DNA of 64,000 nt, taken from the NCBI GenBank assembly GCA_040285855.1, contig JAUFOQ010000006.1:1302001-1366000 (forward strand), written 5' to 3'. Numbering within the stretch: position 1 is the first letter of the stretch; the number at the start of each line of letters is the position of its first letter. Shown here piece by piece: positions 7,621 through 63,917 of this stretch. The translations under genes and the position numbers were made by a program. The notes beneath the pieces were generated by a model, which saw only the letters and a program-made list of their open reading frames with translations, was not told where the DNA came from and ran no database searches. This DNA is from Eukaryota sp. GEM-RC1 (Eukaryota).

Positions 7621-7677
7621 ATCAGATTAAATGTTTCAGAGTAACAACACGATTTATACACAAATAACTTGAAATAA

Positions 7678-10562: not shown

Positions 10563-10616
10563 GTGAGAAAAACTGTAAACAGTAATTTTTTGATCCGCTC
10601 ATTTTATGCTTTTGAC

Positions 10617-16140: not shown

Positions 16141-16294
16141 CTTAACAGATTTATATTTACGAAAATTGAAGAAAATGGCAACAATTGCTCGATTATGAGT
16201 TGCTTTATGACAAATCCAACCACCGGTTCGGTTTTATTTGATATCATGAATTGAACACCACTTGGGCCAAATTTCGATTGATTTAATGTTTTTA

Positions 16295-20243: not shown

Positions 20244-20539
20244 CCAAGATTGTTGCTTTTGAAGTGGTGAGCGTTCTAATGATTATGTGTTTTTGTTTAC
20301 TGTCATAAAGTTATTATCAATTGTTCGGTGTTTTACCAAAACTAAGTCAAAACGGTTTTTCCTTTGATAATTTCTGGTTTTGTTTGGTGAGTTACTACAT
20401 GCAGTCCTCTTTTGTTCGTTGAAAGTCCGAAATTCATGCTTAAAAACTTTAAAATTCTAATGACAAATGGGAATTGAAGAAAATCAAAAAATCCTTTTTG
20501 TAGAACTTTACATTTTTAGAACATAAACTAGAACTAAAT

Positions 20540-20750
20540 ATCATAAAAGCAACATTCATTGCCATTAAAACTCACATCAGTTTTTTCTTCACAAAAAACA
20601 CTGAGAGCTAACAGAGCTTTTGAAATCATAATAGGAATTGTTCTAAAAATTGTAAAGACAATACGATTCAACAAAAACTTTAAATGAAATTTCTTGTTTA
20701 CTCATTCTTTAACAGCTTTCTCAAAATCAGAGGGAAAACAAAGATCATCC
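20540..20750 (-). mobile_element. Short 3' fragment of the RLE retrotransposon family
   Basis: Sequence similar to 56785-56900 and 15590-15720 (LNRIVFTIFRTIP). Confidence 0.65.
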
Positions 20751-30768: not shown

Positions 30769-31060
30769 CTAGAAGACACTAGTTAAGGTACTAGTATCTG
30801 AACTAAATTCCACCTGACTAGAATCAAACAATTTAGCTAAAATAGAATTGAAATATCTAAACATCGACCGAAACAAATCAAAAGTCAATCTTGATAAATC
30901 CCGCATTGAACACCTTTCCATACTTGAACACAATTTTCCAAAAGAGACTAAAAACTGTTGAGCTGAAGGTCCAATATTACCATAAAGGGTTGAAAACAAA
31001 ACAATTATAACTATCAGCATTCAGCCCAATAATTGAGTCACCATATTTTGTGCCCTTACC
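30769..31060 (-). mobile_element. RLE retrotransposon 3' fragment
   Basis: STLYGNIGPSAQQFL...FDLFRSMFRYF. Confidence 0.7.
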
Positions 31061-31878
31061 ATTTTCCGCAGTCCTAAAAAAGGAAATGACATCTAACTGT
31101 CAAATATACAAAAAGCCGATTTATGTGCGGAGAAAAGCACACAACAAGAAAACAACAAATAAATAAAGACTATTAATGATAAAACAAAGCGGTAGTATCA
31201 AAAACTCTGATTAAAGAAATTATTCAACGACCACGACGTAATTTTGGAAAAGCATCAAAGAGATCCTCAAAAGAGTTCCAGTATTTCCAGAAAAGAAATG
31301 ATATCTACTACTTAACAAATATAAAATCCCGTGTTTAATGATCAGATGTACTTTTAAGCGGAGGTACCAAAGTGGCATGACCATTCTCTTGGGTTAGACT
31401 GGAACCGAGTTTTTCAACCATTAGGTATGTCAGAGTTTGAAGAAGTTTGGCACATAAACGCAAAAGACAAAAATTTCTTATCCCATGACAAAGAGAATGA
31501 GATGAAAAGATAAGAAAACAACAGCGTCCTTAAAAACAGCAAAAAGATGATACAGGTACTACAACATCCCCAGATAAAAGGACAACAGAACGTACTGTAT
31601 TGTGATCAACCTAAGTCATGATGAACAAAACGAATGTGAAGACAATACGTTGAAAAAAAGGGGTTGAGTCTTCGCTCTAATACACCAATCCTTTGCGGAG
31701 GTGTTGCTAATCATCTCTGTCTAGTTTCCATTTTAGTGGAGCCAAGGGACAAGCCCAAGGCTATTCCATTAATGCAATGCGTTTGACTCAAAAGTATTGA
31801 GACCCAATGCTTTATCCGACACTTTTACAGTCTGTAGTGTGACGTAAAACAAAATAAGTCTCCCCAAATGTTGGGTTC

Positions 31879-32390
31879 TTGCTGTTTACTCATGAAAACT
31901 TCGAACAAAGTAACAAATCTCGACATGACAACAATCACATCTTCTCAGATCCTCAACTTAGTAGTGTTGGTTTCACTTCATCTAAATGGTGGACAAAATC
32001 AGCTACCAATCATTATGCTGTCAGAGATCAAATTCATGCCATGTGTAAGTCCTACAAAATCGAATCTTTCGTTGAGCCACTGTTGAGATCACTTGTGATC
32101 AATAATGTTAAAAATAGTGATTTTGATAAGACTTTTGGTAAAAGAAGAGCTGATGTCATAGTTCCATCAGTCAATGATGAACTAACGGTTGTTGTTGTGA
32201 TTACTTGTGGATGTTTGTTGTATTTAGAGATGCTAAAAATGAAATGCATCCCCTTGATTTTTCAGAACATTATAAGAGAAACAAATACTATTACCGTGTA
32301 CCCTTGACTGCTCTCAAATAGACAGGGCACGTTGAGTACAAATTATGTCTTTTTGCACTTTCAATTTATGGTCGACTTGGATGCTCTTCC
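31879..32390 (+). mobile_element. RLE retrotransposon fragment
   Basis: HYAVRDQIHAMCKSYKIESFVEPLL...FGKRRADVIVP; same family as 15507-16140 and 56785-57200. Confidence 0.8.
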
Positions 32391-32395
32391 TAGTG

Positions 32396-33012
32396 TAGTA
32401 TACGGTTTAATTAGTCTGGATCAGACTAATATTCATTGTCATTCTGATGTTCAAAAATATGGATTAGTCTGGATCAGACGAATTAAAATCGCGACTAATT
32501 TGCATTTATTTTTATTAGTCTGGGTCAGACCAATATGTCATGAAATAAATTAGTCTGAATTTTTGTTTTGGAATAGAATCACAGCAAACTCAAATTGTAT
32601 ATGATTAAGCATCTATAACTTATTCATCATACTAACTTCATCACTTTTGAGCCTTGCTACCATTAAAGTCTTATTGATGGTTTGCAACGATTTCCTGTTG
32701 CTAAGGCTTCAACAAGATGAACGGCAGGTTCTTCGTCAAGTTCAATAGCGTCGTCATTTTCTTGAAAATGATTCTGTTGCGATCGAATTCTCACGACACC
32801 ATTTAAGATAGAGAAACTATGTGATGGGGAATTAAAAATGGCAACTCAATAGCAGCAATATGGCACCAATCTTCTACTGACGTTTTTGGAGATGGGTTCA
32901 AAATTCAGACTAATTATCATAAAATTGGACATTTTTTATTTTTGATATACTAGAATAAGAATTAGTCTGGATCAGACTAATTTAAAATCCAGACTAATTA
33001 AACCGTTTACTG
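32396..33012. mobile_element. Tc1/pogo-like MITE
   Basis: 25-bp TIR (C/T)AGTA(A/T)ACGGTTTAATTAGTCTGGA with internal TTAGTCTGGATCAGACTAA near-palindromes; TSD not clear. Confidence 0.65.
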
Positions 33013-33655
33013 TTGTTTTCTTTCTGAATACAAGCAAGATTCCAATACAAGCTTAGTAGGGTATGCTTGCATTGTTTCCCTTGGTAAACTCACATATTTG
33101 TTTAAACAATTACTAGTTTTGATGCACAAACGTTTGGAATTTTTCAGTCTCTAGACAAACAGTTTGATCATAAGTTTTGGTTGAATCGTGTTGTCTTTAC
33201 AAACAATTCCTGTTTTGATTTCGAAAGCTCTTTTACTCTTAATGTTTTTTATGACGAAAAAGCTTCTGTGAGTTTCAATAGCAATAAATGTTGTTTGAAT
33301 TATATTGAGTTCTAGTCTTTGCTCACTACTTCTGTTTAAAAAATCGTCTTGAATTGCATCCACAAACTTTCTTTTCAGAAAGCTGCTTGGAGCTATTGCA
33401 TCTCTATTGCAGAGTAATGAGAGTAGTGATGACGTGTAGTTTATGATCCTTGTTACCTTTGATAAACAATTCTTCTCTTTGGGACCTTAGAAAGGCAACA
33501 TGTCCTTCAAGAAACTGATAAGCCACCATCCAGATTCAATAGAGTCTGAAAGAACAGTGTCTTTGAATTGCGATCAGGACTAATCTTCTTTATATTGTGG
33601 AAGTAAAAAACCAATCTAAAAAAACAAATTTCACTTTACATAGAAGAATAACAAT

Positions 33656-35989: not shown

Positions 35990-36171
35990 TACAACACTTT
36001 TTGTATCTCTTACATACAGGGTACATTGAGAGTTGACAGGATGATCCAATTGCTCTTTTCCTGGATTCTTCTCAACTTGTGGTTGATTGCAACAGTTGAC
36101 CCGGTTCCAAAAGTCTATATGGAATTAACCAAATATGACGGGGTTTCACCCGTCAGCTAACAAAAATAAAG
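35990..36171 (-). ncRNA. Putative Fanzor omegaRNA
   Basis: Immediately 3' of the Fanzor stop; stems TGACGGG/CCCGTCA, TTCCA/TGGAA, TTGAGA/TCTCAA with inner ATCCA/TGGAT; boundaries inferred. Confidence 0.45.
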
Positions 36172-38460
36172 CTAATTTCTACATAAGTACTCCACTCTCT
36201 CATCACTACCATTCATCCAGTGTTCGAACATGTTCATCATGTTCAAACAAGCCATCTTGTTTCGATTCCAATACATTTGAGTGGGCACTGTGTGCCCTTT
36301 CTTTTCCCCCTTTCAATCGTTTCTTGACTTCTCCCAGACAATGTTCACTCCTACACTCTAGTAAGCCATGTGGGTGAATCCATTCTCTTTTCTCTCTTGA
36401 TTTGGGCTTTGGGTTGACAACCTCAATGGAAGTTTCAAAAACATCTTCATGACATTCTGGACACTTGGACGAAGTGTTTCTCTCATCATTCATCACTGTT
36501 AAAAAACCGTTTCTCTGAAAGAATGAAGTCCAAGTCTTAGTTCTGGATGGTGGACTGTGTTTTAAGTTGGACATTGGCTTCTGACCTAAATCACCAATAC
36601 ATAGTACGATTTTGTCACGGCTACCAAAAGTTTTTACAATGCTGTTAACCAATTTAGACTCTGTCTTTTGCTTATGGACATGATTTTGGATTTTGTGAAT
36701 CCTCCATATATGCAAAGCATAGAAGTCTTTAGTTGCATTGTAATGAATACATTTAGCCAGAATAAACTTTCTAAATTTAGTGTAATTAACAGTTTTAGAA
36801 TCATGTTCTTCACTTAACCAAGTGTTCCATTTCTCAATTTTCATTGTCACAGTTATTGGATTATCATCACCTGCTCTCACGGTAGTAGTACCTGATCTCC
36901 TTCTAACAAGGTACTGGTGGATTCTTTTATGCTTTCGTGAAACTCTAGACCACTCAGCATATGTCAATCGTAAGAAGTTGTATTTCTTTAGAGGATTTTG
37001 AGTTTCCCTATTTGATTTAGATGCAAGTTGTAGCATATCTCTCTTTCCAATGTCCACATAAACCATTTGTTTAGAAATATAATCAGACCTATCACATTCA
37101 TTGAAATATTGTACTTTTACTGAAGCTTTACTTGAATCAGGTTTACATTTCATACCTTTCAGATCCTTTCTCACAAATTGAAAACAAATAGAAATTCCAT
37201 CAGTTACAGCATAGTTGTTGAATTCAAAATTGGCTTTGTCAAAACTTCTGTCTTCACAGTTAAACCATCTTTTCCAGTAATCTTGTTGTTGAGAATGGGT
37301 CATGTTTTGGATCTGGTCTTTACTCATATAATTAGTCACTTTCGAATGTAAAGGACCAATCTTCTTATCATTATTCTTATATCCAAAACAGTGCTTAGCC
37401 AGTCCCCAAAGAGTTCTAGTATCTATTGGGAAAAAACAGGGAGTATTCTCTAAACTTAGAGGAATTACATTATACAACTTAGCACCCTTTGATTCCAAGT
37501 AATCTGAGATTTGAAGAGAATTTCTTAGAAAATGAAGTGGATACTCCTGAACGGTGTAAAGTAAATTATGAACGTCTACAGTTTCATTGTCGTTAGTAGT
37601 GATTGTAGCAGGAAATATGATGTTAAATCTTTGAAGTAGTTCTGGAATTTTATCAGCCATTAGAGAATTAACCTGTTCAAATATTAACATACTGAAATCA
37701 TCATCAAAAACTTTAGAAACTTCATCAATAAACTTAACATTTTCAGGGTGAGTGGCAGAGTTAAAAGAATTAATATACTGTAAGGCTTCATCTCTAGGTC
37801 GATACAAAATCTGGTCTTTCAACATCTTTAAACGAAATCTGAAGTAACTAGTGAACTTTTGTGCTTCACGACTTGTTAGTCCTGCAAGTTCTGGACCTAA
37901 AACCAAATTACGTTTCTTTTTCATTCCCTTTTCAAACTCTTTCTTACCCATTACTGTATTGATAAATCTTTTAATGTACAACTCATAATTGCGGCGAATA
38001 TTTAATTCAAACGCAGGCCACATTTCATACTGAGTAGTCTATTCAAAAGCTCTACTGATATGATCAAAATCAAGTTCTGGTAAATGACATGTGCCAAATG
38101 TATCAGTAACACAGTGCTTATATCCAGGGTAGTTTGAGTCAGCATTATAGATTCCTTCTCCAGCAACAAAATCACGAAGGTCTGGATCAATCGTTCGTAT
38201 AGGACTATTATTTGGAATTTTAAAGTTATGAACTTCAGATGAAAGATTTCTAATTGAAAGCATTGTATGATAAAACAACTTGTAATCAAACTTAGACAAA
38301 TCTTGTCCAAGACGATAGCGAGCCAACAGATATTCTTTAACACACATTGTAGTCTGTTGTCTTAACGCATTGTAGAACTCAGATCCTAAAAGCATGGCAT
38401 CTTGAACTTCTTGATGTTTTACCACACTAACAACTGATGTTTTAATAGAAGCCCATGATT
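36172..38460 (-). CDS. Fanzor1 (eukaryotic TnpB-like RNA-guided RuvC nuclease) domain, ~760 aa, interrupted by one in-frame TAG and one frameshift
   Basis: WASIKTSVVSVVK N-terminus, ELNIRRNY, TDGISIC, RuvC-I YVDIG, IGDLG, RuvC-II NDERNTSSKCPEC, HGLLEC..C, RuvC-III YWNRNKMACLNM, ends ERVEYLCRN*. Confidence 0.88.
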
Positions 38461-38489: not shown

Positions 38490-39240
38490 ATAAACAATTT
38501 AAACGCCAGAATTGAATCATGAAGACAGTAGTTGATTAGCGTTTTCATTCTTTTATCACTTCTTAAACAATCAACTGGGAGTAAGTGGTCCAAGTCTTTA
38601 TCCAATTTCAATTTAGGTTCAGAAAGTAAATTCCAAGATAAATTGGCTAGACTACAACCATACTTGAGACCAATATACTTCTTTGCAAATAAGAAGGTAT
38701 CCAAAACTGTAAAACCATTGTGATCTTTTATGATATCCAGCCATCGACTATGTAAAGGCAACTGAATTGGATTTGGATTTGTTAAAAGAGGAAGGTCAAG
38801 AGCCCACATTCTATTGTCAATTATGGGCAAATCAAAATTGAAAATATTATGGCCAATAAAAGCATTTGGTTTATATTGACTAACAATATTAGCGTACTTA
38901 ACCAATAATTCTTTTCATTTGGGAAGTCCAAAAGATCTAATTTAAAAGCTGGTGTTTCTGAATCACCAAATTTGATTTTATAATTGTAATCAGTGTAAAG
39001 GACGATTGAGCTGTCAAATTGTAACTCACCATTGGATTGCAATTTTGCAATAATGACAGAGATCATGATGATTTGTTGATCTGCGAGAAAATCAATGTCG
39101 TGAGCTTCTTTCTCAAAATCATTCATTAACAATCTTCTCTGTTTCAAAGACTCTTTTCCGTTCTACGATGTTTATTCAATTCTTTGTTCACTCGTGTAGG
39201 AATTCTCTCATTGATATTTCTTGTTTCAATATCAATTATA
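38490..39240 (-). CDS. Family-B DNA polymerase-type (DEDDy/DnaQ) 3'-5' exonuclease domain, fused in frame to Fanzor
   Basis: ExoI IIDIET, IIMISV, NEKELL, ExoII IGHNIFNFDLPII, ExoIII NYCLHDS; no polymerase motifs; two homopolymer frameshifts. Confidence 0.82.
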
Positions 39241-39739: not shown

Positions 39740-40370
39740 GGAACTATTGTTGGTTGTAAAGATTGAAGATACAATTTTATTACTTGCCTACTCTCTTGAG
39801 CATTGATAGAGTTTTGCAACAATATACCAGCAGCTTGAATAAGAGGTTGATCTGAGAATTCATGTGAAGTGAGAAGTTCTAAAAGTCCTCTCATATACTC
39901 AAGAACATAAATTCCACAATCATTTGGTGTTTGCTTCTCTATCACTGGAACAATAATGAGTCGATACTGGAGTTGATGAAGAGTTTCGTCTATTCTCGAA
40001 ATAACTTGATTCAAAAACGAATTAATTTCATGTAAATTCTTACCAACATCCTGTCTGTGATTTTCAACATCATAAAGAGGATCGAGAAAGATGAAAAGTT
40101 CATCATGTGTATCGATTACAACCAAACCCCAATGTATACCAGAACTTTCGTTGATCAATGCGTCATTTATTGGAAGAAACAGATATCTAGAATTTGCCTG
40201 AAGAATCTTGTTGATGAAAAATTGGTGAAGAGATTGATTTTCATGAACTAAAAATGATTGAACAGATCCAGGAGTTACAAAGGCGTTTAAATCAACTCCA
40301 TATATCTCCATCAAATGTCAAGAGTACCAATTAACACAATCGTCCACAATCCAACCATCAGGTGACAAAG
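39740..40370 (-). CDS. Ulp1/SENP8-like cysteine protease domain 2
   Basis: GWIVDDCVNWY, FLPIND...GIHWGLVVID, FLDPL, KQTPNDCGIYVL (H-D-Q-C); in-frame TGA at 40318-40320. Confidence 0.8.
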
Positions 40371-40968: not shown

Positions 40969-41733
40969 TTAATTCAAAAGCTGGTTATTGAAGCTTTTAT
41001 ACAAAGTTTCAATCACATATAAAACAAAAATCCCACAATCATAGTCATTGTTTTGTTGTGGTACACTTAGATTGTGAGGATGAAAAAGATTGCTAGCACG
41101 TGCTACATGTTCTTTGGTTGAATTTAAGAACATTTTTCCATTAAGGGAATCTGCGAAATACAAATGACTCAAAGCAAGATCGTAAATAGCAAGTCCCCAA
41201 TGACTTCCAGGAAATAATGCAGTTATAGCATCATTAATAGGCATTACTACTAACACTTTACCAACGTTTTTAGATTTAATGGTTGCAGAAACATCGGCCA
41301 AATTATCTTGATTTCGTATAGCGCTGCCAAACTCCATAGGGTCGAAATCTCCTATAATCTCTGCAGCTAAAGGATACTTTTGTGCTATCAAGTGATGTCC
41401 AAAATTTAAATGTGAAGATTCTAGCCATGTTTCATCATCCAGAGGACTAATACCACCAAAAGCAATTTCTGGGCCAGGGTTTGACTCAATGTCTCCGTCC
41501 ATAGTCAAATCACGGACAAATTGTGATGACTGGAGATTTATGTTGGTTTTTGTAATACAACAAGAACAACAAGAACCACTACAGTATGGAGTACTATAAC
41601 AAAAACAAAAAAGAAATAGAAGAGATTTGAGGATCGAGGGACCCATGAAAATCTTCATAAAGACCTGACGGTCTTGAGCGAAAATAAAGCAACAAACCAA
41701 GCAAAGGAGTGATCTGAGGATCAAAAGACCCAT
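40969..41733 (-). CDS. Hydrophobic leader + 2A peptide + Ulp1/SENP8-like protease domain 1
   Basis: ETWLESSHL, MPIND...GSHWGLAIYD, FADSL, PQQNNDYDCGIFVL. Confidence 0.82.
   Translation of the reverse strand: MGLLILRSLLCLVCCFIFAQDRQVFMKIFMGPSILKSLLFLFCFCYSTPYCSGSCCSCCITKTNINLQSSQFVRDLTMDGDIESNPGPEIAFGGISPLDDETWLESSHLNFGHHLIAQKYPLAAEIIGDFDPMEFGSAIRNQDNLADVSATIKSKNVGKVLVVMPINDAITALFPGSHWGLAIYDLALSHLYFADSLNGKMFLNSTKEHVARASNLFHPHNLSVPQQNNDYDCGIFVLYVIETLYKSFNNQLLN
41470..41520 (-). other. 2A/StopGo ribosome-skipping motif FVRDLTMDGDIESNPGP
   Basis: Exact match to the GD(V/I)ExNPGP consensus. Confidence 0.85.
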
Positions 41734-41929
41734 AGAAGGCTCCTGACAGTGGGGAGACGAAGCACAGTGAGATATCTAACCAACACGAAGTCGATAGACA
41801 TCTCACTAAGCGAATGATCTTAAATTTCTGTTTGAACTATTTGTGGTTAATGTCTACATTGACATGTTGACATCTTGACGATGGACTGCATTTTGTCTAC
41901 AGTAATTTCACTGGAAATTTGTAAATAAT

Positions 41930-42415
41930 ATGCCGTTACATCTACCTCACCAATGTAAGAACTCTCTTCGCAAGATCAGAACAACACTTCGCAGCTTACA
42001 TCACCCTGCTTCAAAGTCCTCTAGTGCTGACACTCATTCGTACTATATTGATGTTCCCGAACAATGCGATCTTCACAACGTAGTACTTATATATGATCAA
42101 GACCGAGAATTATTTCGTCCCGCAACGCTTTCTGATCCGCCTCATTGTATAAATCATTTAGCAATCATCCCACTTACGACTCCTCTGAAGCTCACTAACC
42201 GTACAGGAAAAGTGTTTCTTGTCACACAGGTTTGCCAGGAATGCTCACAGTATTTTGTTTCTTTGGATCCTCTTCCTGTGATGACGTCGTCTCCTGATAA
42301 CGTGGTAGTCACTAGTCCTCCTTCTGGTCCTACTTCTGGTCCTTTCTTGTACCCTCTCTTGGACAGAGAGGAGACAGATAGTGCACCATCAGCCCCTGTT
42401 ATGGATGATATTTGA
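41930..42415 (+). CDS. Hypothetical 161-aa protein divergent from the polyprotein
   Basis: ATG-started intact ORF with a CxxC motif; no recognised family. Confidence 0.4.
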   Translation: MPLHLPHQCKNSLRKIRTTLRSLHHPASKSSSADTHSYYIDVPEQCDLHNVVLIYDQDRELFRPATLSDPPHCINHLAIIPLTTPLKLTNRTGKVFLVTQVCQECSQYFVSLDPLPVMTSSPDNVVVTSPPSGPTSGPFLYPLLDREETDSAPSAPVMDDI

Positions 42416-42669
42416 GTGATCCTTTGACAAGTTCTTCTTTCCCATGTAGGTGATCATTAATGACTTGTGTATTAAACGTATGATCATTATGTTTCTTCTA
42501 TCTTTGTCACATTTTTATGAATATTTAGCCTTCTAATGTTCTTCTAGTTTGATGTGATTCATTTGATCAATGAAAGAGCTCTGAGAAAAAACAATCAAAT
42601 TTGATCTTGGTGACAGTAGACATCTACTAACACAAGATTTGCTACAAACATCTACTGTAGTAAAATCCA

Positions 42670-43380
42670 TTAATGATTGACTCGATTTAAGCCACGGAGT
42701 ATGGAGATCCCGTCTTTTTGATCAGTAAATTCATTTTCTGAAAGATGATTCAAAACTGGTTCAACTATAGAGTGAAAACCATGCGCTTTAAACATGGAAT
42801 AGCAAGAATCACGTACACCATCATGAATTACTGCACGTAGATGAATATAATATCGACAATTAATTAAATGACGAAATACACCATTAGCTCCACAAGAACA
42901 AGTCGAATAGTTTAATAAATTTGCAGGCCAAATAGCCAAACGAAGACGCATATTGATCATCCAAGCTTCATCAGATAGATGAAATGCCAACACATTAGGA
43001 ATTTGAGAAATAAATCCAGAAGGTCCACTATTACAAAGGTCCATTAAAAAAGCAGCGAACTCGGGACTATTAGTTTTAGCCAAGCTAATACGATTATTAA
43101 AGTCCAAGAGTTCAAACTCCTTGTCAATTTATTTTGGAGCTTACATACAGCAGACGGTAGAGATGAAATATTTTTTAAAGGAGTCTCATTCAATTGAGCA
43201 GGGAACAAAGATTCTCACATTTCAGGAGACAAAGATGATACCAAATCTTTAGCAGATTGAATCCAACGGCAATTACTGGAATTCAACAGATTGATTCCAT
43301 CCAAGGGAAACCGTTTCAAAAATTCAAACATAAAATTCTTAACACCTCCTAAAAAAGCAGATTTTCTAATGATTTTAGCA
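42670..43380 (-). mobile_element. RLE retrotransposon fragment (post-RT region and zinc knuckle)
   Basis: WMINMRLRL, CSCG...HLINC...HDGVRD. Confidence 0.8.
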
Positions 43381-43610
43381 TGGGTGAAACCTACCCTGCA
43401 AATTCAGGTAAATAGAAAGCATGAAATGGAATCTTAGTCTCATCAATTTCAGTCAAGTTAATTGAATACAACAACAATCACAACACAAAATCTCCACACA
43501 ATAATTGTGATATGCAACTATGTTGTTAAATAGCTAAAATTTGAATTTTGATGAAGATCAGATGGTGTTTCAACTTGAAACACCTCTTTCAAGAAAGAAA
43601 CTAACTGATC

Positions 43611-44978
43611 ATGGATGACTTCCTTTCACCCAAACAAGTTGTGATATTTCTATCGCTTGTATATCTGTTGTTTCAAACAGTTATCCATGTTGTTCTTTAT
43701 TTCTTCCACTTCACACACTCGTATTTGTTGCTCATTGCTGTGTTCAGTTTAACCATATCTTCTTTAGTGGTTGTTTGTGCCCTAAACTACGTCCGAACAT
43801 TAGAGAAATCAAACAATGGAGTCTTGCAACGGGTATTTCTCAGCTACTTTTTCACTATCGCTGCTACCCATACATTGCTGACTCGGTTTTGGGTGGAAAC
43901 AGATCATTTTGATTTGTACCTCATCTCCGCCTCAGTCATTTCTTTATTTGCTCTCTTCATGACCCTAACTCACAACTATAACCCTTCCCTACTTCTATCA
44001 CTCTCTATATTTGGAATCATCACCACCCTCCTTCTTCTTTTCTTTTCCCAACTTCCCAATATTTCTGGTTATACTTCAACCTTCCGCACTCTAGATCACT
44101 ACCATATCCTTGTTGGAGATCCAGGTGATAGCTACGTGCCTACCGACCTTGACGATCTTCTCAGTTCAATCAAATCTGATCATGGGCTCTATGTGTTATC
44201 AGGTCCACCTGGAATAGGAAAGAGTTTAGCTCTCTATCGTCGTTTTAGGAAGGAACGCGTGATTTGGCTGAGTGCTAGGGCAAGCCTATCAACTAACCTT
44301 TTACATTTGGGCTATAGAGAATCTGATGAAATTAAATGTTTTGATTTCATTACGAGAGAACTCAGAACAAACAAATACGTGCTTGTAGTTGATGACGCAC
44401 ACTTAGCTCGAAACGATTCTCTAATCTCAAAACTCTACCTTGGAGTTGGATCTGTAAAACCTCAGTTCAAAATCTTTTTGATTGTATCCGATTACAATCA
44501 TTACTTATCACGTATTCGGGATCAAGTCAGTCGGACAGTGATTGATCTCTTTGGGTCCTACCCTCAGTCTAATGTTGTTAAAGAAGTTTGTTTAAAGCAC
44601 AATCTTACTAATTGGGAAGTAGTAGTCAACTTGACTGGTCCCTCGCTTCGATTGATTGCTAACTATGCTGATTATGATCGATCTATCATGAGGATGAAAT
44701 GCAACGGTCAGATTGATTCTCTTTTACTGTATCAGCATGTCCAACCAGCTTTGTTGGAGTTTACGACGATGTTTAAAAGTGATTATGGTCGACTTGATTT
44801 AAGAAAGTCTGGAATCAATCAAGAAATGTTTGATTTTCTTGTGATTAGGAATATTTTATCTGGGATTTATTCAAATGCCTATTTCCATGATCCTCTTGTC
44901 CGCAGAGCTGCTTGTACGTTGTTTGAGCACCACAATCTACCTTCTTGTAACGTCACCCTTTGTCATCAGATCACGTGA
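43611..44978 (+). CDS. Multi-TM protein fused to a P-loop ATPase
   Basis: ~5 hydrophobic helices, Walker A GPPGIGKS, Walker B LVVDD. Confidence 0.7.
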   Translation: MDDFLSPKQVVIFLSLVYLLFQTVIHVVLYFFHFTHSYLLLIAVFSLTISSLVVVCALNYVRTLEKSNNGVLQRVFLSYFFTIAATHTLLTRFWVETDHFDLYLISASVISLFALFMTLTHNYNPSLLLSLSIFGIITTLLLLFFSQLPNISGYTSTFRTLDHYHILVGDPGDSYVPTDLDDLLSSIKSDHGLYVLSGPPGIGKSLALYRRFRKERVIWLSARASLSTNLLHLGYRESDEIKCFDFITRELRTNKYVLVVDDAHLARNDSLISKLYLGVGSVKPQFKIFLIVSDYNHYLSRIRDQVSRTVIDLFGSYPQSNVVKEVCLKHNLTNWEVVVNLTGPSLRLIANYADYDRSIMRMKCNGQIDSLLLYQHVQPALLEFTTMFKSDYGRLDLRKSGINQEMFDFLVIRNILSGIYSNAYFHDPLVRRAACTLFEHHNLPSCNVTLCHQIT

Positions 44979-46050: not shown

Positions 46051-46713
46051 CGGTTTCTCTTTTTAATTGTGTTTATTTTATTTTATTAACTCGAATGTTT
46101 CTTAACTTCTTTAACATTTACGTTTAGAATAAACAGTTTTGTGCCCCATAATATATGTCTGCTATTTACATTCATCACCGAAAAGTACCGTTAACTGAAC
46201 ACGGATCTTCGTGTTCAGTTAATAGTTCCAATGTACTATTATAATGGTAGATGTATAACAAAGTACGTCATGATATTTGCGAAGTACAATAATATTGTCT
46301 TTCAGTCTTTTGTGCATCTTTACATTGAAATATTGGTCCTAAGGAGTTCTTAAATTTGTTTGAAAATTTGGTAAGAAGATCAACAGATGGATCGCAATGG
46401 AAGATTAAATTTGCTTGTTCGATTTTAAAGTCAATGTATAGATATATTGATTCCGTTTTGTCCAAGTTGTTTGGTGGCAACTACTTTTCCGAATTGGGTT
46501 GTTCTTTTGATAATTAAACACGTGTTTTGATTTGGTTTTTTTTGTTTTGATAGAGTATATTTGGATTATTGGAATACAAATCCATTTTAATGGGAGCTTC
46601 TAGGTGGTTAAATCCTTTTGAAGTTATACTGTTGACACCAATTTAAGCACACGCAATATTATTACACTAAGGTTAATTTGACTGGATTCAAGAAAGTCAA
46701 TATTCTTCTTCAA

Positions 46714-51763: not shown

Positions 51764-53149
51764 TTAAGAAATCATAGAATGAGAATCAACCAGTTCAAAG
51801 AAATCTTCACTAATTGTTTGGTAGCGACTCATAAATTTTAAAAATTTGGTCTTAACAGAAGAATTAACTAAATACTCAATGTTCGTGATCTTATTCCCGA
51901 CAAAAATTAAATAATTCTGTAAATTTTCAATAGAATCACGAAGTGCATTTGGACTGCAAGGATTCGGTACCACGGCAAGCTTGGACACGATATCTCCACA
52001 GCGGTCCTTTAAAACATCTAAATCATGTTCAAATTCATCCAGAATTTTTAAAAATACTGGTGAGGGAAGATTCACAGACAACATCTGATCTAAGATTAAC
52101 AAAAATTCAAAATTTTAAACATACTATCTTTGATAAATCCGACACTTTCTTTTTAATCCAGATATTTCTGAAGAAATCCACCTTGAATGTTCCATTAACA
52201 CCGACACCCGCAGTTTAACTTCTTTACAATTCTGAACAAGAGACTTTGACTGGATTGCCAAGGAAGCAATAGGATTTGAAGAAGAAAATAGGTTGGAGGA
52301 GAGCAGCTCTTGAACGTTGTCTTTTGAAGTGATGGACTTGGTTAAAGTTTGATGTTTCTTGATATGTTTGTTTAGCTCTTGCAGCTGAGATTTGAGGTCG
52401 TTGGGTAGATCGGAGAACTTAGTGGTTTCTGAGAAGTGGTGGTAAGCAGGGAAGTACTGTGTAATTGGTTGGGTAGGGGTGGGGGCGCTGTAAGAAGAGG
52501 TGCCAAACCCACTAAAGCTCGGTGTGGGCTGAGTGGGTTGAGATTGTCCAAAGAGCGAAGGTTGAGTTGTGGTATTTGATGATCCACCAAAAGAAAACGA
52601 TGGAGTTGAAGTAGTTCCTGAAGGTTGAATTGTGGTATTTGATGATCCACCAAAAGAAAACGATGGAGTTGAAGTAGTTCCTGAAGGTTGAGTTGTTGTA
52701 TTTGATGATCCATCAAAAGAAAACGATGGAGTTGAAGTAGTTCCTGAAGGTTGAGTTGTGGTATTTGATGATCCACCAAAGGAAAACGATGGAGTTGAAC
52801 TAGTTCCTGAAGGTTGAGTTGTGGTATTTGATGATCCATCAAAAGAAAACGATGGAGTTGAAGTAGTTCCTGAAGGTTGAGTTGTGGTATTTGATGATCC
52901 ACCAAAGGAAAACGATGGAGTTGAAGTAGTTCCTGAAGGTTGAGTTGTGGTATTTGATGATCCACCAAAGGAAAACGATGGAGTTGAAGTAGTTCCTGAA
53001 GGTTGAGTTGTGGTATTTGATGATCCACCAAAGGAAAACGATGGAGTTGAACTAGTTCCTGAAGGTTGAGTTGTGGTATTTGATGATCCACCAAAGGAAA
53101 ACGATGGAGTTGAACTAGTTCCTGAAGGCTGACCAAAAGAAAAAGACAT
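51764..53149 (-). CDS. FG nucleoporin Nup58/Nup49-like
   Basis: FSFG repeats, TKFSDLP..L...I, LPSPVF...FE coiled coil; 35-nt intron 52090-52124 (GTATGT...TTAG). Confidence 0.72.
52557..53128 (-). repeat. Nine near-identical 63-bp coding tandem repeats (QPSGT(T/S)STPSFSFGGSSNTTT)
   Basis: Direct inspection. Confidence 0.95.
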
Positions 53150-53533
53150 GGGTGATTAGTGTAGGAAAATCTTTGTGAAAATTGTAAAAGTGGAAGACTT
53201 TTGATCAGGGAAAAAACACAAGAAAACAACAAATAATAAAACTACAAAACATTATTCAGTACCCAATAAGGTAACATTCCTACAAATCTATGAAATTGTA
53301 AAAACAAACAAATAATACTAAGATTAAATCCAAATGACTTCATCCCCATCCGGTTAACATTTGCGTTGTTTCGTTCAATGCACAGATATTTTAATTCAAT
53401 TTTAGGTAAGTTGTTCGGTGATGGACAGAAGGATCATAGTTTAGATACTTTAGTTAGTGTCTGTTAGTAAAAAAAACGGATTTATGTGCGGAGAAAAACA
53501 CATAATAAGTTAAGTACAAATAGATAAACACTA

Positions 53534-54088
53534 TTAAAACAAATTATCAAACGAACTACCTAATTCCGAAAAGTAGTTGCCTCCAAACAACTTGGACAAA
53601 ATGGAATCAACATATCTATACATAGACCTAAAAATCGAAAAAGCAAATTTACTCTTCCAGTACGATCTGTTAAACTTTTTGCCAAGTTCTGAACACAAAT
53701 TTTCAAATAAACTTAAAAACTCCTTGGTAGAAGAACCGAAATTTCCGTACAATGAAACTGCAAAAGGCTGAAAGACGATATTATTGTGTCTTCGTGAATT
53801 CAATGCAGCAACTTGATGTCCATACTTAGACACTTTGGCGTTCTCAGCGTCTTTCAGCGGATCATTTGAGGGATTCAAAATGTTGGCAATAGCTGAAGCT
53901 TTGCAAGGATCAACGGTCGTAAAATCAACAACAATTTCTTGGCATGACAACCAAGGGCCAATAAAACCACCACGTTTCTGAGTAGAATCAGGGTGATCTG
54001 AAAGATGAGAAAGTAATGGTTCGACTTTGCCATGGAAACCATTTGCCTTAAACATTTCCAAACATGTATCTCGAAGACTGTTGTGCAA
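53534..54088 (-). mobile_element. RLE retrotransposon 3' fragment
   Basis: HNSLRD, VEPLL, VVDFTTVDP, AENAKVSKY, PFAVSLYG, WKSKFAFSIFR. Confidence 0.82.
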
Positions 54089-54429
54089 AATTGAACGACA
54101 ATATATGAACTTAGTCTGTTAGTTATTAACTTCTGCAAATGCATTTATTTCACTGACTGATCATAAACCCCGTTTTATTCCCCATCCGGTAAAAGATTAC
54201 CTTTTTCAACATTAACCTTCACACCAAACTTGTACAATTTCTCAATTAATCGAGAGAAATAGAAACGCATATTCCGATATATGGAAAACACTGTACGGTA
54301 TTTCCATTCAGCCATTCTAAACTTCCGCTTCTTTTCTTTACACAGTTCTTTGAAATCCTTGAAAAATTGATCACCATCATAATGTTATTGTACTTATTGC
54401 AATATATTATATTATATATTATTTATATT

Positions 54430-55160
54430 TTCTTGGAAGCAAAATATGCGTCTTCGTTTAGGTTTATTCCCTAGTGGTTTGCTAAATAATTCAATCTGTG
54501 TTTGCGATAACCGAGCTACAGCCACATTTCGTCATGTTGTTAGTTGCAAGAAATTTTTGCAATTTCGACCTGTTCTACATAACGCTATTCGTGACGTTAC
54601 TTATGAAATGTTCAAATCCTACAATTATAGTTGTAAAATTGAACCTCTTCTGAAACATTATAGCGACAATAACGTGTTTGATTCTCGGCGTGGTGACTTA
54701 ATTGCTCCTTTCCTGGATTCATCTCAAGTTGTGGTTGATTTTACTACAGTTGACCCGTTTGCAAAAGTCTACCAAGACTCCATATTGAATGATTCGAATG
54801 GTCATCTGGAAAAGGCTGAACAACGAAAGTGTTCAAATTATGCGGATGCTTTGCAGAAGCTTAATGAAAATCTATATTCAAAGTTTTCATTTGTTCCATT
54901 TGCCATTTCAATTTTTGGAAATATTGGTCCAGCCGGTTTAAAGTTAATTAGTGATTTTAGTCTTTTATGTCGTTCTAATGGCAAGGTGTTTAATAGCGCT
55001 GTATGGATTAATCGAATTATGTTCGCTCTTTATAGAAGCATTCTCAAGTATTTATGTTCCATTTATTCGAAGTTGTATAGGGACAATTCTCGTGTTGATG
55101 TGGAGAATTTAACTTCTTTCATTTTCTGAATTAGTATGTATTAATTTATTGTTGCAAATA
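54430..55160 (+). mobile_element. RLE retrotransposon 3' fragment, next to a hAT right end (TIR-like CAATATATTTTTTCCAATCCCTG, ~55182-55204)
   Basis: MRLRLG, CVC...HVVSC...HNAIRD, RRGD, VVDFTTVDP, AEQRK, PFAISIFG. Confidence 0.85.
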
Positions 55161-56784: not shown

Positions 56785-57400
56785 CTATACCTTACTAGTA
56801 GGAATTGTTTTAAACATTGTAAAAACAATACGATTCAACCAAAACTTGAAATCAAATTTCTTGTTCATTCTTTCTTTGACAACTTTGTCAAAATCAGAGA
56901 GAAAACAGAGAGCATCTTTACCAAGTCGACCATAAATTGAAATGGCGAAAGGACATAATTTGTTCTCAACACGTCTAATATGTTTGAGAGCAGTCAAGGG
57001 AACAACATATTTGTTTCTCTTGTATTGTTCTGAAAAATCAAGTGGAGAAACTTCATTTTTGCATCCTAGTCCTTGAATGCATTTTTTTCTGCAAACATCC
57101 ACAGTACTCACATCAAAAACCGTTAGTTCATCATTGACTGATGGAACTATGACATCAGCTCTTCTTTTACCAAAAGTCTTGTCAGAATCACTATTGTTTA
57201 AATTATTGAACTTTTTCGGTACCCAAAAATGTAACCTTCCTACAAACTATGAATTTGCAAAAACAAACAAACAATACTAAGATTAAATCCAAACGACTTC
57301 ATCACCATCCGGTAAAAGATTACGTATTTAAACATCTACAATTTCTCAAGTAATCGAAAGAAATAGAAAGTCATATTCCGATAAATGGAAAACACTCTAA
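56785..57400 (-). mobile_element. RLE retrotransposon 3' fragments of two families
   Basis: GKRRAD, YKRNKY, YGRLGKD; 57218-57400 matches 53258-53355 and 54178-54292. Confidence 0.78.
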
Positions 57401-60229: not shown

Positions 60230-60395
60230 GTTACAAGATGTGTAACACAAGATTTGTTTTACAAGATGTGTTTTACAAGATGTGTAACACAAGATTTATA
60301 ATGCAACATTTGTAATACAAGATGTGTTTTACAAGATGTGTAACACAACATTTGTAATACAAGATTTGTAACACAACATTTGTAATACAAGATGA
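60230..60395. repeat. Degenerate tandem minisatellite (ACAAGATGTGT/ACAAGATTTGT/AACATTTGT units)
   Basis: Direct inspection. Confidence 0.85.
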
Positions 60396-62895
60396 AACTA
60401 TCAAAATTACCTATATTGTCCAATCTTTTCAAAATTAAATATAATTCAAATAAAACACACATACCAGTCTTTTCATCATTTTTCAAATATTCTTTCAAAA
60501 CATGAAATAATTCCACAAGCACATCACTACAATAACGTTCATCAACATTATCCCTATTAATCACATCGGTAATGTAACAGTTTCTTATTGTTTTCACTTC
60601 CATACTTGATGCAGATTCAGATCCAATACAATCTAGTACATTATCGACAATTGACTGAATTCCAATAGTTAAGTCAACTCTCAATTGTTTTGAAGTAGCA
60701 ACACGATCATACTCCAAAATAGGAGACAATGATATTGTTTCATAATTCACATTGTCAGTTTGTTGATATTCACATATGGAATCACATTGGTCATTTTCAA
60801 CAATACTTTCAGTCTGAACTTCCTTGAGACAAAATCGTTTTTCATCATCAATAAGAGGAAACACTTGGGAACTTTTTCTTTCTACACCAGCATTAATATT
60901 CTTTTGTAGAAGGAAATTCTTCGTTGGTAAAGGGGTTTTCTTCAAACGAGGGAGCGATGGTAGAGTACTGTTGCCTCGTGGTAATTGAGGAAGTTTACAC
61001 TTTTTCACACAAACCTCTGGAGAATTTTTGTTAAAAATAGAGTCACAATTAATAAATTTGGGAGGAATATTAGTTTCATCTTCTTCAAGTTCATCATTTA
61101 CAACAAAATCATCTAAACTTGTTGAAATTGTATCACTGTCAGATTCATCACCAGAATCGGATCCTGATAGTAGTGCTTCTGTTTCAAATAAATTTGATTT
61201 TTCGAAATGATTTTTGTCCAAGTCAATAATTTGATTATCATTATTTTCAATAATTTGTTCATCAACATTATCAACAATAACTTCATCAACAACTTCATCA
61301 ACACAATGAACATCTTCAGGAACAACAACATCATCCATAATTGGTTCACTCGATTCTGCACAAAAGTTTACAAACAATGAATCAAAATGATTGAAATCTC
61401 GTTGAAGACGATGTTGATTTCCCAAAACATACAAATCAATAGTGGATGGCTTAACAGGATGAAAAGTTGAATAATACCATTGATACAATTCCAAATTTGG
61501 TACTGGATAACTTCTTCCAATGCTTAAAATCTTTAAACTCCTCCAAGACCTAACCCTACTTAAAGTCACATAAAGTTGGGCATATTCCCAAAACTGGATA
61601 GCAACTTCAATCCCGTCAATTGTTAAACCTTGGGATCGATGCACTGTTATCGCCCAGCAAGGTCTTAGCGGAAACTGAATTCTTTTCGCCACTTGAACAG
61701 GTCTTCCGATTTCGTTCAAGTGTTCGATAGCAAACCTTGACTGACTGATTCTTTTCGGTTCTGCTTCAGCGTTGAACCGAACATCAATATATGTATCTGA
61801 AAAATTAACAATAACTCCTTTTGAACCATTAACTAGTCCAAGTTCAGGCTTATTTTGAGTGTACATCACTTGTCCACCCAAAACGCAGTCTAGTTTTTTT
61901 CAGCAAAGTCATCCAAGCGACTTGTCAGGACGGAAGTTTCAATGTCATAATATTTTTCCAAATTAGATTCATTGACTGGAAATCTACAACTTCTTTTTCT
62001 AATTTGAGATTTTAATTCAGATTCATTGAATTTGTCAACAGCTACAAATTCAATTGAATCTGAATTTTGGCCAGAATTTTGAATTGTTTCAAATTTTCTC
62101 TAGCAACATCAGTATTCTTTCCGTATAAAATTGTTTGGTTTTCAACAGATTCTGCTGTTTCGAAATGAGTACGCAGAATTGATTTCATAAAATTATCTAA
62201 CAGACCCAATCTCAATTGATTTAGAAAATTAAAAAATTGTGAGTCTGATTGTTGCCGAATACTTCCAGCCAGTTCACAATATTTAAAATTTAAATTGTTC
62301 CAAGCTCTTGATGAAAAAGCGAAATCTGAAATTACCACTTTTCGATTTCCTTTTCCATCAAGACTTTTCTAACAGGGGCTAATTGAAGAAAGTCCCCAAA
62401 ACAAATTATCTGAATTCCTCCAAATGGTTTCTTCGGGGAGTGACATTTTTGCGTGTGCATAAGTTCGCTCAAAATGTCACTCGCCCGTTGAAACAATTTG
62501 GAGGACAACATTGAAATTTCATCAATGATCAACATTGAATTTCTTGCTGTAATTTTTTTTAACAAAATTTTGACATTTGATGGCATACATTTGATAACAT
62601 CATGTATGGATTCTTCTTCTTTCATAAGCTTATAACCAAACAGTGAGTGTATGGTCTGTCCACCAAAAACAGTTGAGGCAACCCCAGTTGTTGCAGTGAA
62701 GAAGATTTCACCATTAGCACGCATGAGACGAGATCCAACGTTACTCCACCAGTTTTTGAGAGCATGTAAAAGATAAGATTTTCCTGATCCTGCACCGCCA
62801 GTGACAAAGAAGTTGCGTCTGCTGGTAGTGATTGCGTTAAAGATCTCACGTTGGTCATCTGTGAGATTGATGTTGTGTATAGTGGTTGGTGGCAT
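60259..62895 (-). CDS. PIF1-family (SF1B) helicase with long acidic C-terminal extension, frameshifted; probably transposon-borne
   Basis: TGGAGSGKS, ATTGVAS, TIHSLFG, IIDEISM, FGGIQIICFGDFLQLAPV, LVNGSKG, QFPLRPCWAITVHRSQGLT, QLYVTLSRV. Confidence 0.88.
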
Positions 62896-63019
62896 TGAGT
62901 TGATGGATTGTTTGAGCGCAGGGAAACTTGGTCTTCATCAAATTTCTCTTTCAGAAGCCCCTTATCATACGTTAGCTTTGTCAGAGAGTGATGTTTTGTA
63001 TGGGTTTGGGTACAATGCC

Positions 63020-63917
63020 CAGAATCAGAAGCTGAGCGATATAACGTATATTTGAATTCTTTCTACGAAGATGACTGGTTTAGAAAGAGGAAATTCCAAA
63101 TTTATTCAAATAACCAACGGTCGGAAAAAAACATGCTGGAACGCTTCAATTTAACATATGGACCTCCAGAAGACGTCGTCATTGGCTATGGGGATTGGAG
63201 CTCAAAAGGTAAAACAAGAAAGGGCAAAACCTCTACTGTGGAAATCCGTAAAATGTTAAGAAAATATGGATACCAAATATTTCTTGTTGATGAATACAGA
63301 ACAAGCAAGTGTTGTTCCAAATGTGCTAAGGAAAAATCAACTTTCGTAGAATGTGAAAATGTTTCAGAACTAAAGGTTCTTGGTCCCAAAGGCAAGAGAC
63401 AGCTAAGAAGGAAGAAGAGAAAGTTAAGAAGAGAAATTTTGCTCAAAAACAAACAAGATCCTCTAAACCAACGGGATTTTTGGAAGCAGAGTGGGAGGTG
63501 AAGCAGAAGTCATTGGAAGAAGAAGCTAAATCCACACCCTGGGGACTGGTAAGGTGCTCAGGTGCTAAGTGTGGTACTTATTGGAATAGAGACCTAAATT
63601 CTGCCATCAATATCTATTCCATCATTGAAGCAACGATCAATGGTCAAGGTAGACCATCCGCTCTCGAGAGATCTAAAACTCAAACAACAGATCTCGAGAG
63701 TGGTAAGGATACTTTGGCGAGAGACCAGAAGAAGAAGAAGACTGCGACCAAAAAGAAGAAAACTTCAACAGGAAAGACTCGTAAGAAACCAACATGTGGA
63801 AATTGTGGCCAAGAAGGTCATAACAAAACGTCATGCAAGAATCCACCAAAAGAAATGAGTTCGCCTAAAAGAAGAAGCGTAAAGTCAGTCAAGAAGAAGA
63901 AGGTCTCTCGTAAATAA
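63020..63917 (+). pseudogene. 5'-truncated Fanzor (RuvC-II, zinc finger, RuvC-III) with basic tail and CCHC knuckle
   Basis: FRKRKFQIY..NQRSE, IGYGDWS, LVDEYRTSKCCSKC, WGLVRC..C, YWNRDLNSAINI, GRP, CGNCGQEGHNKTSC; frameshift near 63478. Confidence 0.85.

What the first reader, a model, noticed from the sequence alone, without database searches (positions are those of the whole stretch)
41470..41733. 2A/StopGo peptide after a duplicated hydrophobic, Cys-rich leader
Seen: VRDLTMDGDIESNPGP follows two related hydrophobic segments (MGLLILRSLLCL / MGPSILKSLLFL, also a DNA-level repeat). Established: D(V/I)ExNPGP causes co-translational skipping in RNA viruses and in some non-LTR retrotransposons. 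Inference: skipping would release a membrane/secretory leader from the protease-exonuclease-Fanzor product, an unusual expression strategy for an OMEGA nuclease.
Basis: partly seen in the sequence, partly recalled or inferred. Interest (0 to 1): 0.72.

Follow-up and report, generated by a model that had tools for sequence, protein, structure and literature searches.

The report
Ribosome-skipping peptide heads Fanzor polyprotein family
A family of selfish elements in free-living protists carries a virus-type ribosome-skipping (2A) motif directly in front of its protease, exonuclease and Fanzor nuclease domains, where it likely cuts off a variable, unconserved leader during translation; this particular copy is broken by stop codons.

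Summary
The motif is conserved: 38 database proteins plus the window carry it, 36 of 39 canonical. Those looked up come from two skoliomonad protists. Five are intact ORFs of 1194-1308 aa reading leader-2A-PolB exonuclease-Fanzor1, about 32% identical to the window element. The 2A is the RDLTxDGD[VI]ExNPGP type of picorna-like viruses, whose tested analogues release the upstream peptide. The skip site lies at the start of a SENP8-like protease domain.

The secretory-leader reading does not hold family-wide. There are 14 different leader types, mostly tandem repeats, and only 1 of 13 looks like a signal peptide. Leaders and cargos are shuffled at or just after the 2A (18 combinations). Best reading: the 2A trims off whatever the swappable 5' module encodes, and may also limit nuclease output. 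Skipping is untested.

This copy has 3 in-frame stops (sense codons in sibling copies) and 5 frameshifts (probably assembly errors), so it would yield only a 167-aa protease. My searches found no report of a 2A with a Fanzor.

The parts
41765..41810 (-). Long hairpin about 30 nt upstream of the first ATG; role unknown (structured 5' UTR or element end)
   Evidence: Fold of 41734-41880: -43.2 kcal/mol, z -4.66, 0 of 200 shuffles; position; no Rfam match
41527..41733 (-). Leader, 69 aa, with two in-frame ATG-initiated repeat units (41733, 41646); T-rich, Cys-rich; shared only with the nearest copy P0015
   Evidence: no Atlas hit
41470..41526 (-). 2A/StopGo peptide (class A core with RDLT upstream tract); predicted skip between Gly (41475-41473) and Pro (41472-41470)
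   Evidence: tested viral analogues in PMC11512398
40972..41472 (-). C48 protease domain 1, closest solved relative SENP8/NEDP1; begins at the post-skip Pro; catalytic His (SHW, 41205) and Cys (DCG, 41046) motifs present
   Evidence: Pfam PF02902 E 3e-7; 2bkq E 2.7e-7
40969..40971 (-). In-frame TAA; Gln in sibling copy P0165
40682..40967 (-). Duplicated 49-codon helical segment (88% DNA identity, spacing 147 nt); weak UBA-like match
   Evidence: Pfam PF14555 E 3e-5
40318..40320 (-). In-frame TGA; Arg in sibling copies P0017 and P0165
39870..40400 (-). C48 protease domain 2 (HWG at 40137, DCG at 39924); boundaries approximate
   Evidence: Pfam PF02902 E 3.9e-10
38500..39240 (-). PolB-type 3'-5' exonuclease domain with ExoI (DIE, 39239), ExoII (GHN..FD, 38854) and ExoIII (Y..HD, 38530) motifs; split by two frameshifts in this assembly
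   Evidence: Pfam PF03104 E 1.4e-7; P0200 is continuous across 38910
36172..38446 (-). Fanzor1 nuclease: RuvC D (VDIG, 37054), shifted E before the zinc finger (DERNTSSKCPEC, 36487), third residue N (WNRN, 36270); TAG at 38041-38039 (Tyr in P0200) and a frameshift near 36300; N-terminal boundary approximate
   Evidence: tblastn with P0001 E 1e-114, 32%; relatives match SpuFz1 at E 2.5e-14 and 1.4e-21
36118..36171 (-). 3' tail with a hairpin (36155-36136); candidate omega-RNA scaffold and right end, abutting a non-LTR fragment at 36117
   Evidence: z -2.6, 3 of 200 shuffles; junction

Best explanation
The window holds a broken copy of a multicopy protist selfish element whose reading frame, as intact relatives show, runs leader - 2A motif - cargo (here two SENP8-like proteases, a PolB-type exonuclease and Fanzor1), and the 2A likely makes the ribosome release the leader and resume at Pro, so that the cargo would get a fixed N-terminus whatever 5' module lies upstream. 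Shown: the motif and its upstream tract are conserved across very different leaders and cargos; the skip site lies at a domain boundary; leaders are unrelated to each other and mostly tandem repeats; leaders and cargos occur in shuffled combinations; intact 2A-exonuclease-Fanzor1 ORFs exist in a related species. Inferred: that skipping happens in the host; that the leader is a by-product of translating from the first AUG of a T-rich, repeat-built promoter/5' region; that the 2A thereby lets 5' modules be exchanged without harming the nuclease; that the proteases act on NEDD8/SUMO conjugates; that the Fanzor is an active D-E-N nuclease guided by an RNA from the 3' tail. This copy would give only a leader and a 167-aa protease.
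For: Conservation not built into my selection: in one protein per leader type, L at -12 is 13 of 13, D at -13 and T at -11 are 12 of 13, D at -9 is 11 of 13, and -16 is F in 9 and W in 4; positions -45 to -19 average 0.25 top-residue frequency. L at -12 matches F2A L7, which contacts the exit tunnel (PMC12846837). Near-identical viral peptides (aalivirus B1 2A1 and 2A3) gave full release with downstream translation in vitro (PMC11512398). The SENP8 alignment starts 6 residues after the post-skip Pro. Intact ORFs: P0001, P0002, P0004, P0011, P0013. The same cargo carries two different leader+2A modules in that species (P0001 vs P0002). 14 leader types, 11 cargo-start types, 18 combinations; 3 leader types occur with 2-3 cargos and 5 cargo types with 2-3 leaders. 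10 of 13 leader types have a clear protein-level tandem repeat. [quoted passage not shown]
Against: No skipping assay, RNA or proteome data. The motif alone does not guarantee activity (PMC11512398). Several RDLT-type viral 2As gave only the upstream product (kunsagivirus C1 2A1, limnipivirus B1 2A1, WCP 2A1-3), which fits a throttle better. All relatives are predicted gene models whose DNA I could not read, so leader starts, in-frame repeats and some leader/cargo combinations could be annotation effects (P0001 and P0002 share their first 47 residues and may be different splicings). 3 of 39 motifs are degenerate. The Cys excess of this leader is unexplained. A Fanzor link is shown only for the window lineage and the P0001 lineage; for the other 2A-protease proteins the downstream gene is unknown, and P0190 did not align with P0200.
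Confidence: 0.6

Rival explanations
1. The 2A is mainly a throttle: most ribosomes release the leader and do not resume, which keeps a toxic nuclease and proteases at low level. This can coexist with trimming.
For: Close sequence analogues gave upstream product only in vitro (PMC11512398). Down-regulation of the downstream product was proposed for non-LTR 2As (PMC3708506), and many eukaryotic 2A-like peptides reduce protein abundance (PMC13405545). The cargo includes a DNA nuclease.
Against: Other close analogues (aalivirus B1) resume normally. A throttle does not explain why the skip site coincides with the domain start or why modules are exchanged there.
Confidence: 0.22
2. One reading: the leader is a functional signal or membrane peptide, and the 2A separates it from the nuclear cargo or gives dual targeting.
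For: The window leader begins with a signal-peptide-like stretch (best 12-residue hydropathy 2.85) and is kept at 64 of 70 residues in P0015. A 2A-like signal sequence is described for sea-urchin proteins (PMC4981915, abstract start only). All leaders are poor in K, E, D, N, Q (9-20%).
Against: Only 1 of 13 leader types scores above 2.1 at the N-terminus; 3 of 13 are Cys-rich; leaders are unrelated. The leader diverges from P0015 as fast as the protease (6 of 70 vs 9 of 129). 54% of composition-matched shuffles also have a membrane-like stretch. No Atlas or Pfam relative.
Confidence: 0.1
3. The 2A is an inactive relic carried along from a captured RNA virus or retrotransposon 5' end and is translated as a plain linker.
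For: The same peptide type occurs at 62 places in small viral contigs. The window is full of non-LTR fragments. This copy is decayed.
Against: 36 of 39 motifs are canonical and the upstream tract is kept while the flanks are unrelated, in two species and across cargos only about 20-35% identical.
Confidence: 0.08

Closest known systems
2A/StopGo peptides of Paavivirinae picornaviruses (aalivirus B1 2A1/2A3, DERSV 2A6, WCP 2A3; PMC11512398 Table 1)
   Same: Same peptide type; the last 17 residues differ from DERSV 2A6 at 3 positions; class A core with a DLT tract.
   Different: Here it is in a chromosomal DNA element of a protist, occurs once, near the N-terminus, and separates no capsid from a replicase.
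2A in APE-type non-LTR retrotransposons (L1Tc, Ingi, CR1, Crack, L2; PMC3708506, PMC13405545)
   Same: One 2A near the N-terminus, just before the first enzymatic domain, with inactive variants among copies; some such ORFs also carry deubiquitinase domains.
   Different: No reverse transcriptase or APE domain in this element; the cargo is C48 protease, PolB exonuclease and Fanzor1.
Fanzor1 nucleases (SpuFz1 8gkh, PpFz1 9cf0, GtFz1 9cer)
   Same: RuvC with shifted glutamate and C4 zinc finger; D-E-N triad as in the active GtFz1 (PMC11423790); short structured tail between stop codon and element end.
   Different: Fused behind a PolB-type exonuclease and, in this lineage, two proteases, with a 2A in front; no clear terminal inverted repeats found; no such fusion in the passages I searched in five Fanzor papers.
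SENP8/NEDP1 (C48 family), and Ulp1-type proteases carried by transposons (Ginger: search listing PMC2836005; NeSL, Helentron: recalled)
   Same: C48 fold motifs, carried as an accessory domain by a mobile element.
   Different: Expressed behind a 2A, in 1-2 copies that differ between lineages; absent from the P0001 lineage.

Membership tests
Class A 2A/StopGo peptide | (G/H)D(V/I)ExNPGP core | tested here: met
   GDIESNPGP at 41496-41470
Class A 2A/StopGo peptide | Suitable upstream tract, hydrophobic residue at the F2A L7 position | tested here: met
   L at -12 in 13 of 13 leader types, aromatic at -16 in 13 of 13; F2A L7 role from PMC12846837
Class A 2A/StopGo peptide | Skipped peptide bond between Gly and Pro with continued translation | not testable with these tools
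   Needs a reporter; tested analogues either resume or stop (PMC11512398)
Class B 2A peptide | Invariant upstream Trp and EG(I/V)E centre | tested here: not met
   Window has Phe and GDIE; definition from PMC12338488
Fanzor1 | Sequence similarity to solved Fanzor1 proteins | tested here: met
   P0201 and P0001 hit SpuFz1 (E 2.5e-14, 1.4e-21) and PpFz1; window vs P0201 48%, vs P0001 32%
Fanzor1 | RuvC2 glutamate six residues before a C4 zinc finger | tested here: met
   DERNTSSKCPEC ... CRSEHC; definition from 10.1101/2023.08.09.552727
Fanzor1 | RuvC1 DPG motif and catalytic triad | tested here: inconclusive
   Window DIG, P0001 DPG; third residue N in window, P0001 and P0201, as in active GtFz1
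Fanzor1 | omega-RNA from the 3' end and RNA-guided cleavage | not testable with these tools
   Only a 3' hairpin; no Rfam match; no DNA of other copies to test covariation
Fanzor1 | Transposon ends (TIRs or hairpin ends) and a mobilising transposase | tested here: inconclusive
   Best inverted match 13 nt with mismatches; no transposase in the element; multicopy at protein level
C48 (Ulp1/SENP8) protease | Pfam C48 above cut-off with His, Asp, Cys motifs | tested here: met
   30.9 and 40.4 bits vs cut-off 20.7; alignment to 2bkq
C48 (Ulp1/SENP8) protease | Cleavage of NEDD8 or SUMO conjugates | not testable with these tools
   Best structural relative by sequence is SENP8; substrate untested
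2A-bearing non-LTR retrotransposon | Reverse transcriptase and APE endonuclease downstream of the 2A | tested here: not met
   No RT or APE Pfam match in any ORF of the element or in the 22 relatives scanned
Secretory signal peptide / membrane leader | Conserved N-terminal hydrophobic core across the family | tested here: not met
   1 of 13 leader types by a crude hydropathy test; no SignalP-type predictor was available

The most novel reading that the evidence does not exclude
Skoliomonad genomes hold a modular family of OMEGA elements in which a virus-type StopGo peptide is the universal joint: interchangeable repeat-built 5' modules are recombined onto interchangeable cargos at the 2A, and skipping frees a natural exonuclease-Fanzor1 fusion (with deneddylase-like proteases that could disarm host silencing or repair signalling) that cuts and then chews back its RNA-guided break. 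It would be the first StopGo in an element with no reverse transcriptase and an RNA-guided nuclease.
Probability: 0.3. Interest if true: 0.8.

Novelty: new variant of a known kind. Interest (0 to 1): 0.63.

Why it matters
In the papers I read, 2A/StopGo is described from RNA viruses, reverse-transcribing elements and a few cellular genes. Here it heads a Fanzor1 polyprotein and is conserved across two protist species. The many copies with one 2A, many leaders and several cargos make the open question of what N-terminal eukaryotic 2As are for (trimming, throttling or targeting) directly testable in one natural series. The intact 1194-aa exonuclease-Fanzor1 relatives are natural counterparts of engineered exonuclease-nuclease fusions and are candidates for biochemistry. 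The window copy itself is a pseudogene and is a poor experimental subject apart from its 2A.

Tried and rejected
No whole genome is held for the window and no sequencing run was listed, so copies could be compared only as predicted proteins. Alternative genetic code: rejected; host genes have long open frames in the standard code and the three stops are three different codons that read Q, R and Y in siblings. Scans of metagenome and viral contigs with the exonuclease-Fanzor alignment gave 3 + 3 loci matching only the generic exonuclease part; the metagenome scan covered 25 of 64 parts. The 2A-protease alignment against viral contigs gave 19 loci matching only the 2A region. A search for 1034-2950 aa proteins with the 2A-protease alignment found none; this is weak, since P0177 (1098 aa) exists but is not a cluster representative. 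AlphaFold2 on the P0001 alignment failed (pLDDT 28), so no fold search was run. Rfam: nothing below E 4.8. Terminal inverted repeats and Helitron-type ends: no convincing match. The two flanking non-LTR fragments are in opposite orientation, so they are not one element split by this insertion. Two ExNPG strings at 36073 and 54725 are antisense readings of non-LTR fragments, not 2As. P0190 against P0200: no alignment. The protease tree (FastTree, 157 domains) puts the window's first protease apart from the main clade that holds its second, but deep support is weak and the window's own second domain was dropped through a frame slip in my script (P0017 and P0165 stand for it). Earlier scan findings: none returned.

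Full report
Observation. On the - strand an ATG at 41733 opens a frame with two related starts 29 codons apart and DIESNPGP at 41493-41470. It is the only such motif in the window, with 3.1e-5 expected. The DNA repeat is 43 nt at 72% identity and beat all 300 local shuffles. The Cys content exceeds composition (10 vs median 3; 0 of 1135 stop-free shuffles), but the hydrophobicity mostly does not: the DNA is 43% T, and 6% of those shuffles match the observed value.

Anatomy. After the motif come a C48 protease, a duplicated 49-codon segment, a second C48 protease, a low-complexity linker, a PolB-type exonuclease and a nuclease ending at about 36172. The first protease is closest to SENP8 among solved structures, and the alignment starts 6 residues after the post-skip proline. 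The nuclease is a Fanzor1: its relatives P0001 and P0201 match SpuFz1 and PpFz1. Its third RuvC residue is Asn in the window and in both relatives, as in GtFz1, which is active (PMC11423790, passages). A hairpin follows the stop and a non-LTR fragment begins at 36117. A stronger hairpin lies at 41810-41765. I found no transposase or RT in the element and no convincing terminal repeats.

State of this copy. It has three in-frame stops and five frame breaks. Sibling proteins read Gln and Arg (P0165, P0017) and Tyr (P0200) at the stops, so the ancestral frame was open. All five frame breaks lie beside A or G runs, and the dynein heavy chain gene in the same window has three frame breaks, so these are probably assembly errors (inference). 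P0200 and P0021 are continuous across two of them, but P0034, P0193, P0194 and P0195 end in the same broken frame as the window near 39660. As assembled, skipping would give a leader and a 167-aa protease only.

Conservation. The only long relative of the nuclease among 3273 candidates was P0001, an intact 1194-aa ORF with a 2A at residue 69-76, an exonuclease and a Fanzor1, and no protease. Of its 14 cluster members, 8 carry the motif; the other 6 models begin downstream of it or have another start. Two different leader+2A modules precede the same cargo there. A phmmer search of 1.8 billion representatives with the leader-to-second-protease region listed 150 of 170 hits; 17 non-viral hits and 3 viral polyproteins carry the motif, and the other 130, mostly SENP8-like proteins, do not. 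With cluster members, 38 database proteins plus the window carry it, 36 of 39 canonical. Those whose source I looked up are labelled Eukaryota sp. GEM-RC1 or TZLM3-RCL; P0030, P0084 and P0135 were not looked up. These organisms are skoliomonad metamonads (PMC11316075, passages). A Fanzor relative at 48% occurs in a third (P0201, TZLM1-RC), but its model lacks the N-terminal part. The selection pattern fixed positions -8 to +1, so the independent evidence is upstream: D-13 12 of 13, L-12 13 of 13, T-11 12 of 13, aromatic at -16 13 of 13, against 0.25 further upstream. Four GEM-RC1 proteins read 2A-protease-exonuclease in one model (P0024, P0027, P0177, P0190), with degenerate exonuclease motifs and no demonstrated Fanzor. 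The tail of P0165 matches, by eye, an alternative frame inside the window's Fanzor region, which links protease and Fanzor in a second copy.

The leader. Clustering gave 17 leader groups, 3 of them too short to judge, hence 14 types; 11 cargo-start types; and 18 combinations. Three leader types occur with more than one cargo and five cargos with more than one leader. Of 13 types with at least 40 residues, 10 have a clear tandem repeat of 23-42 residues, the window's is weaker, and 2 have none. Three are Cys-rich and one, the window's, has a signal-like N-terminus. All are rich in residues of T-rich codons (48-67%) and poor in K, E, D, N, Q. These are gene models: in-frame repeats are partly an ascertainment effect, and wrong introns could create some combinations.

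Will it skip? The peptide belongs to the DLTxDGD[VI]ExNPGP type, found at 62 places in viral contigs of under 10 kb, which I did not classify. In PMC11512398 (section 3.2, Tables 1 and 3 in part) aalivirus B1 peptides of this type released fully and resumed, while kunsagivirus C1 2A1, limnipivirus B1 2A1 and WCP 2A1-3 gave the upstream product only; the closest, DERSV 2A6, was not determined. The conserved Leu matches F2A L7 (PMC12846837, part 2 of 7). In PMC12338488 (parts 1-3 of 8) 14 of 17 class A peptides were active. Release of the leader is therefore likely; how often translation resumes is open.

Mechanism. Most likely (0.6) the 2A trims off whatever is translated from a swappable, repeat-built 5' module and gives the cargo a fixed proline start. 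Throttling as the main role (0.22) is compatible with this. A functional secretory leader (0.1) fits this one subfamily only. An inactive relic (0.08) is hard to square with the conservation. [quoted passage not shown]

Novelty. Searches: Fanzor/2A peptide/ribosomal skipping, 2A-like/non-LTR/NPGP (20), Fanzor/exonuclease/Skoliomonas (35), Fanzor/Ulp1/protease/transposon (70), 2A-like/DNA transposon/StopGo/Helitron/TnpB (85) and Fanzor/StopGo/NPGP/2A-like/polyprotein (96). No listed paper held both Fanzor and a 2A term; only the top 11-25 of each list were seen. 'Fanzor' had no occurrence in PMC12846837 or PMC12338488. Passages searched in PMC3627910, PMC10432273, PMC10530073, 10.1101/2023.08.09.552727 and PMC13565253 showed no exonuclease or protease fusion. 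Supplements of PMC12338488 list the same tract only from a picornavirus, and those of PMC13405545 have no skoliomonad entry. Also read: passages of PMC3708506, PMC13405545 and 10.64898/2026.09.24.754024, part 1 of 4 of PMC6338049; PMC4981915 and PMC2836005 as listings only. Supplements of the bioRxiv papers, subscription papers and Repbase were not seen and could hold a prior record. NeSL and Helentron proteases are recalled, from no call.

Verdict. Observation confirmed; interpretation partly supported. A known recoding signal in a new setting, an exonuclease-Fanzor1 polyprotein family with exchangeable 5' modules: new variant of a known kind, interest 0.63.

Noticed in passing
window 38500-39240 fused to 36172-38446 (-); P0001, P0200: PolB-type 3'-5' exonuclease fused in frame to Fanzor1, with acidic motifs kept in two species; a natural exonuclease-nuclease fusion that deserves study apart from the 2A.
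   Followed up: partly
window 41906-42415 (+): 169-codon ORF divergent from the element, with a CxxC motif; no Pfam family and no usable Atlas hit. Unknown whether it belongs to the element.
   Followed up: partly
window 41765-41810 and about 41850-41875 (-): Two hairpins upstream of the leader ATG; the region folds at z -4.7; no Rfam match.
   Followed up: partly
window near 39660 (-): Frame break at an A run shared with four relatives that have a different protease (P0034, P0193, P0194, P0195) but absent from P0021: systematic sequencing error, shared lesion or a real recoding site.
   Followed up: partly
window 62992-63917 (+) and 60259-62934 (-): A second, frameshifted Fanzor (WNRD, canonical third Asp) back to back with a PIF1 helicase gene; possibly a Helitron-type element; no 2A.
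   Followed up: no
window 7311-7626, 15507-16151, 20519-20749, 30790-33325, 36048-36117, 42554-43128, 46286-46515, 53252-55129, 56785-57399: Many fragments of two related repeat families that look like the 3' endonuclease region of RLE-type non-LTR retrotransposons (label recalled; no Pfam match).
   Followed up: partly
window 84-6468 (-) and 7678-10598 (-): Genes that read as dynein heavy chain and presequence protease (labels from recall) are broken by 3 and 1 frame changes, which points to uncorrected indel errors in this assembly.
   Followed up: partly
window 17183-17653 (-): hAT dimerisation domain fragment (Pfam E 5e-11) between 67-nt inverted repeats nearby (16446-16512, 17093-17159).
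   Followed up: no
window 43605-44978 (+): Membrane protein with a C-terminal P-loop NTPase (weak AAA/STAND matches).
   Followed up: no
window 52124-53241: 63-nt tandem repeat encoding FSFGG repeats (nucleoporin-like, recalled); the opposite strand is also open for 289 codons.
   Followed up: no
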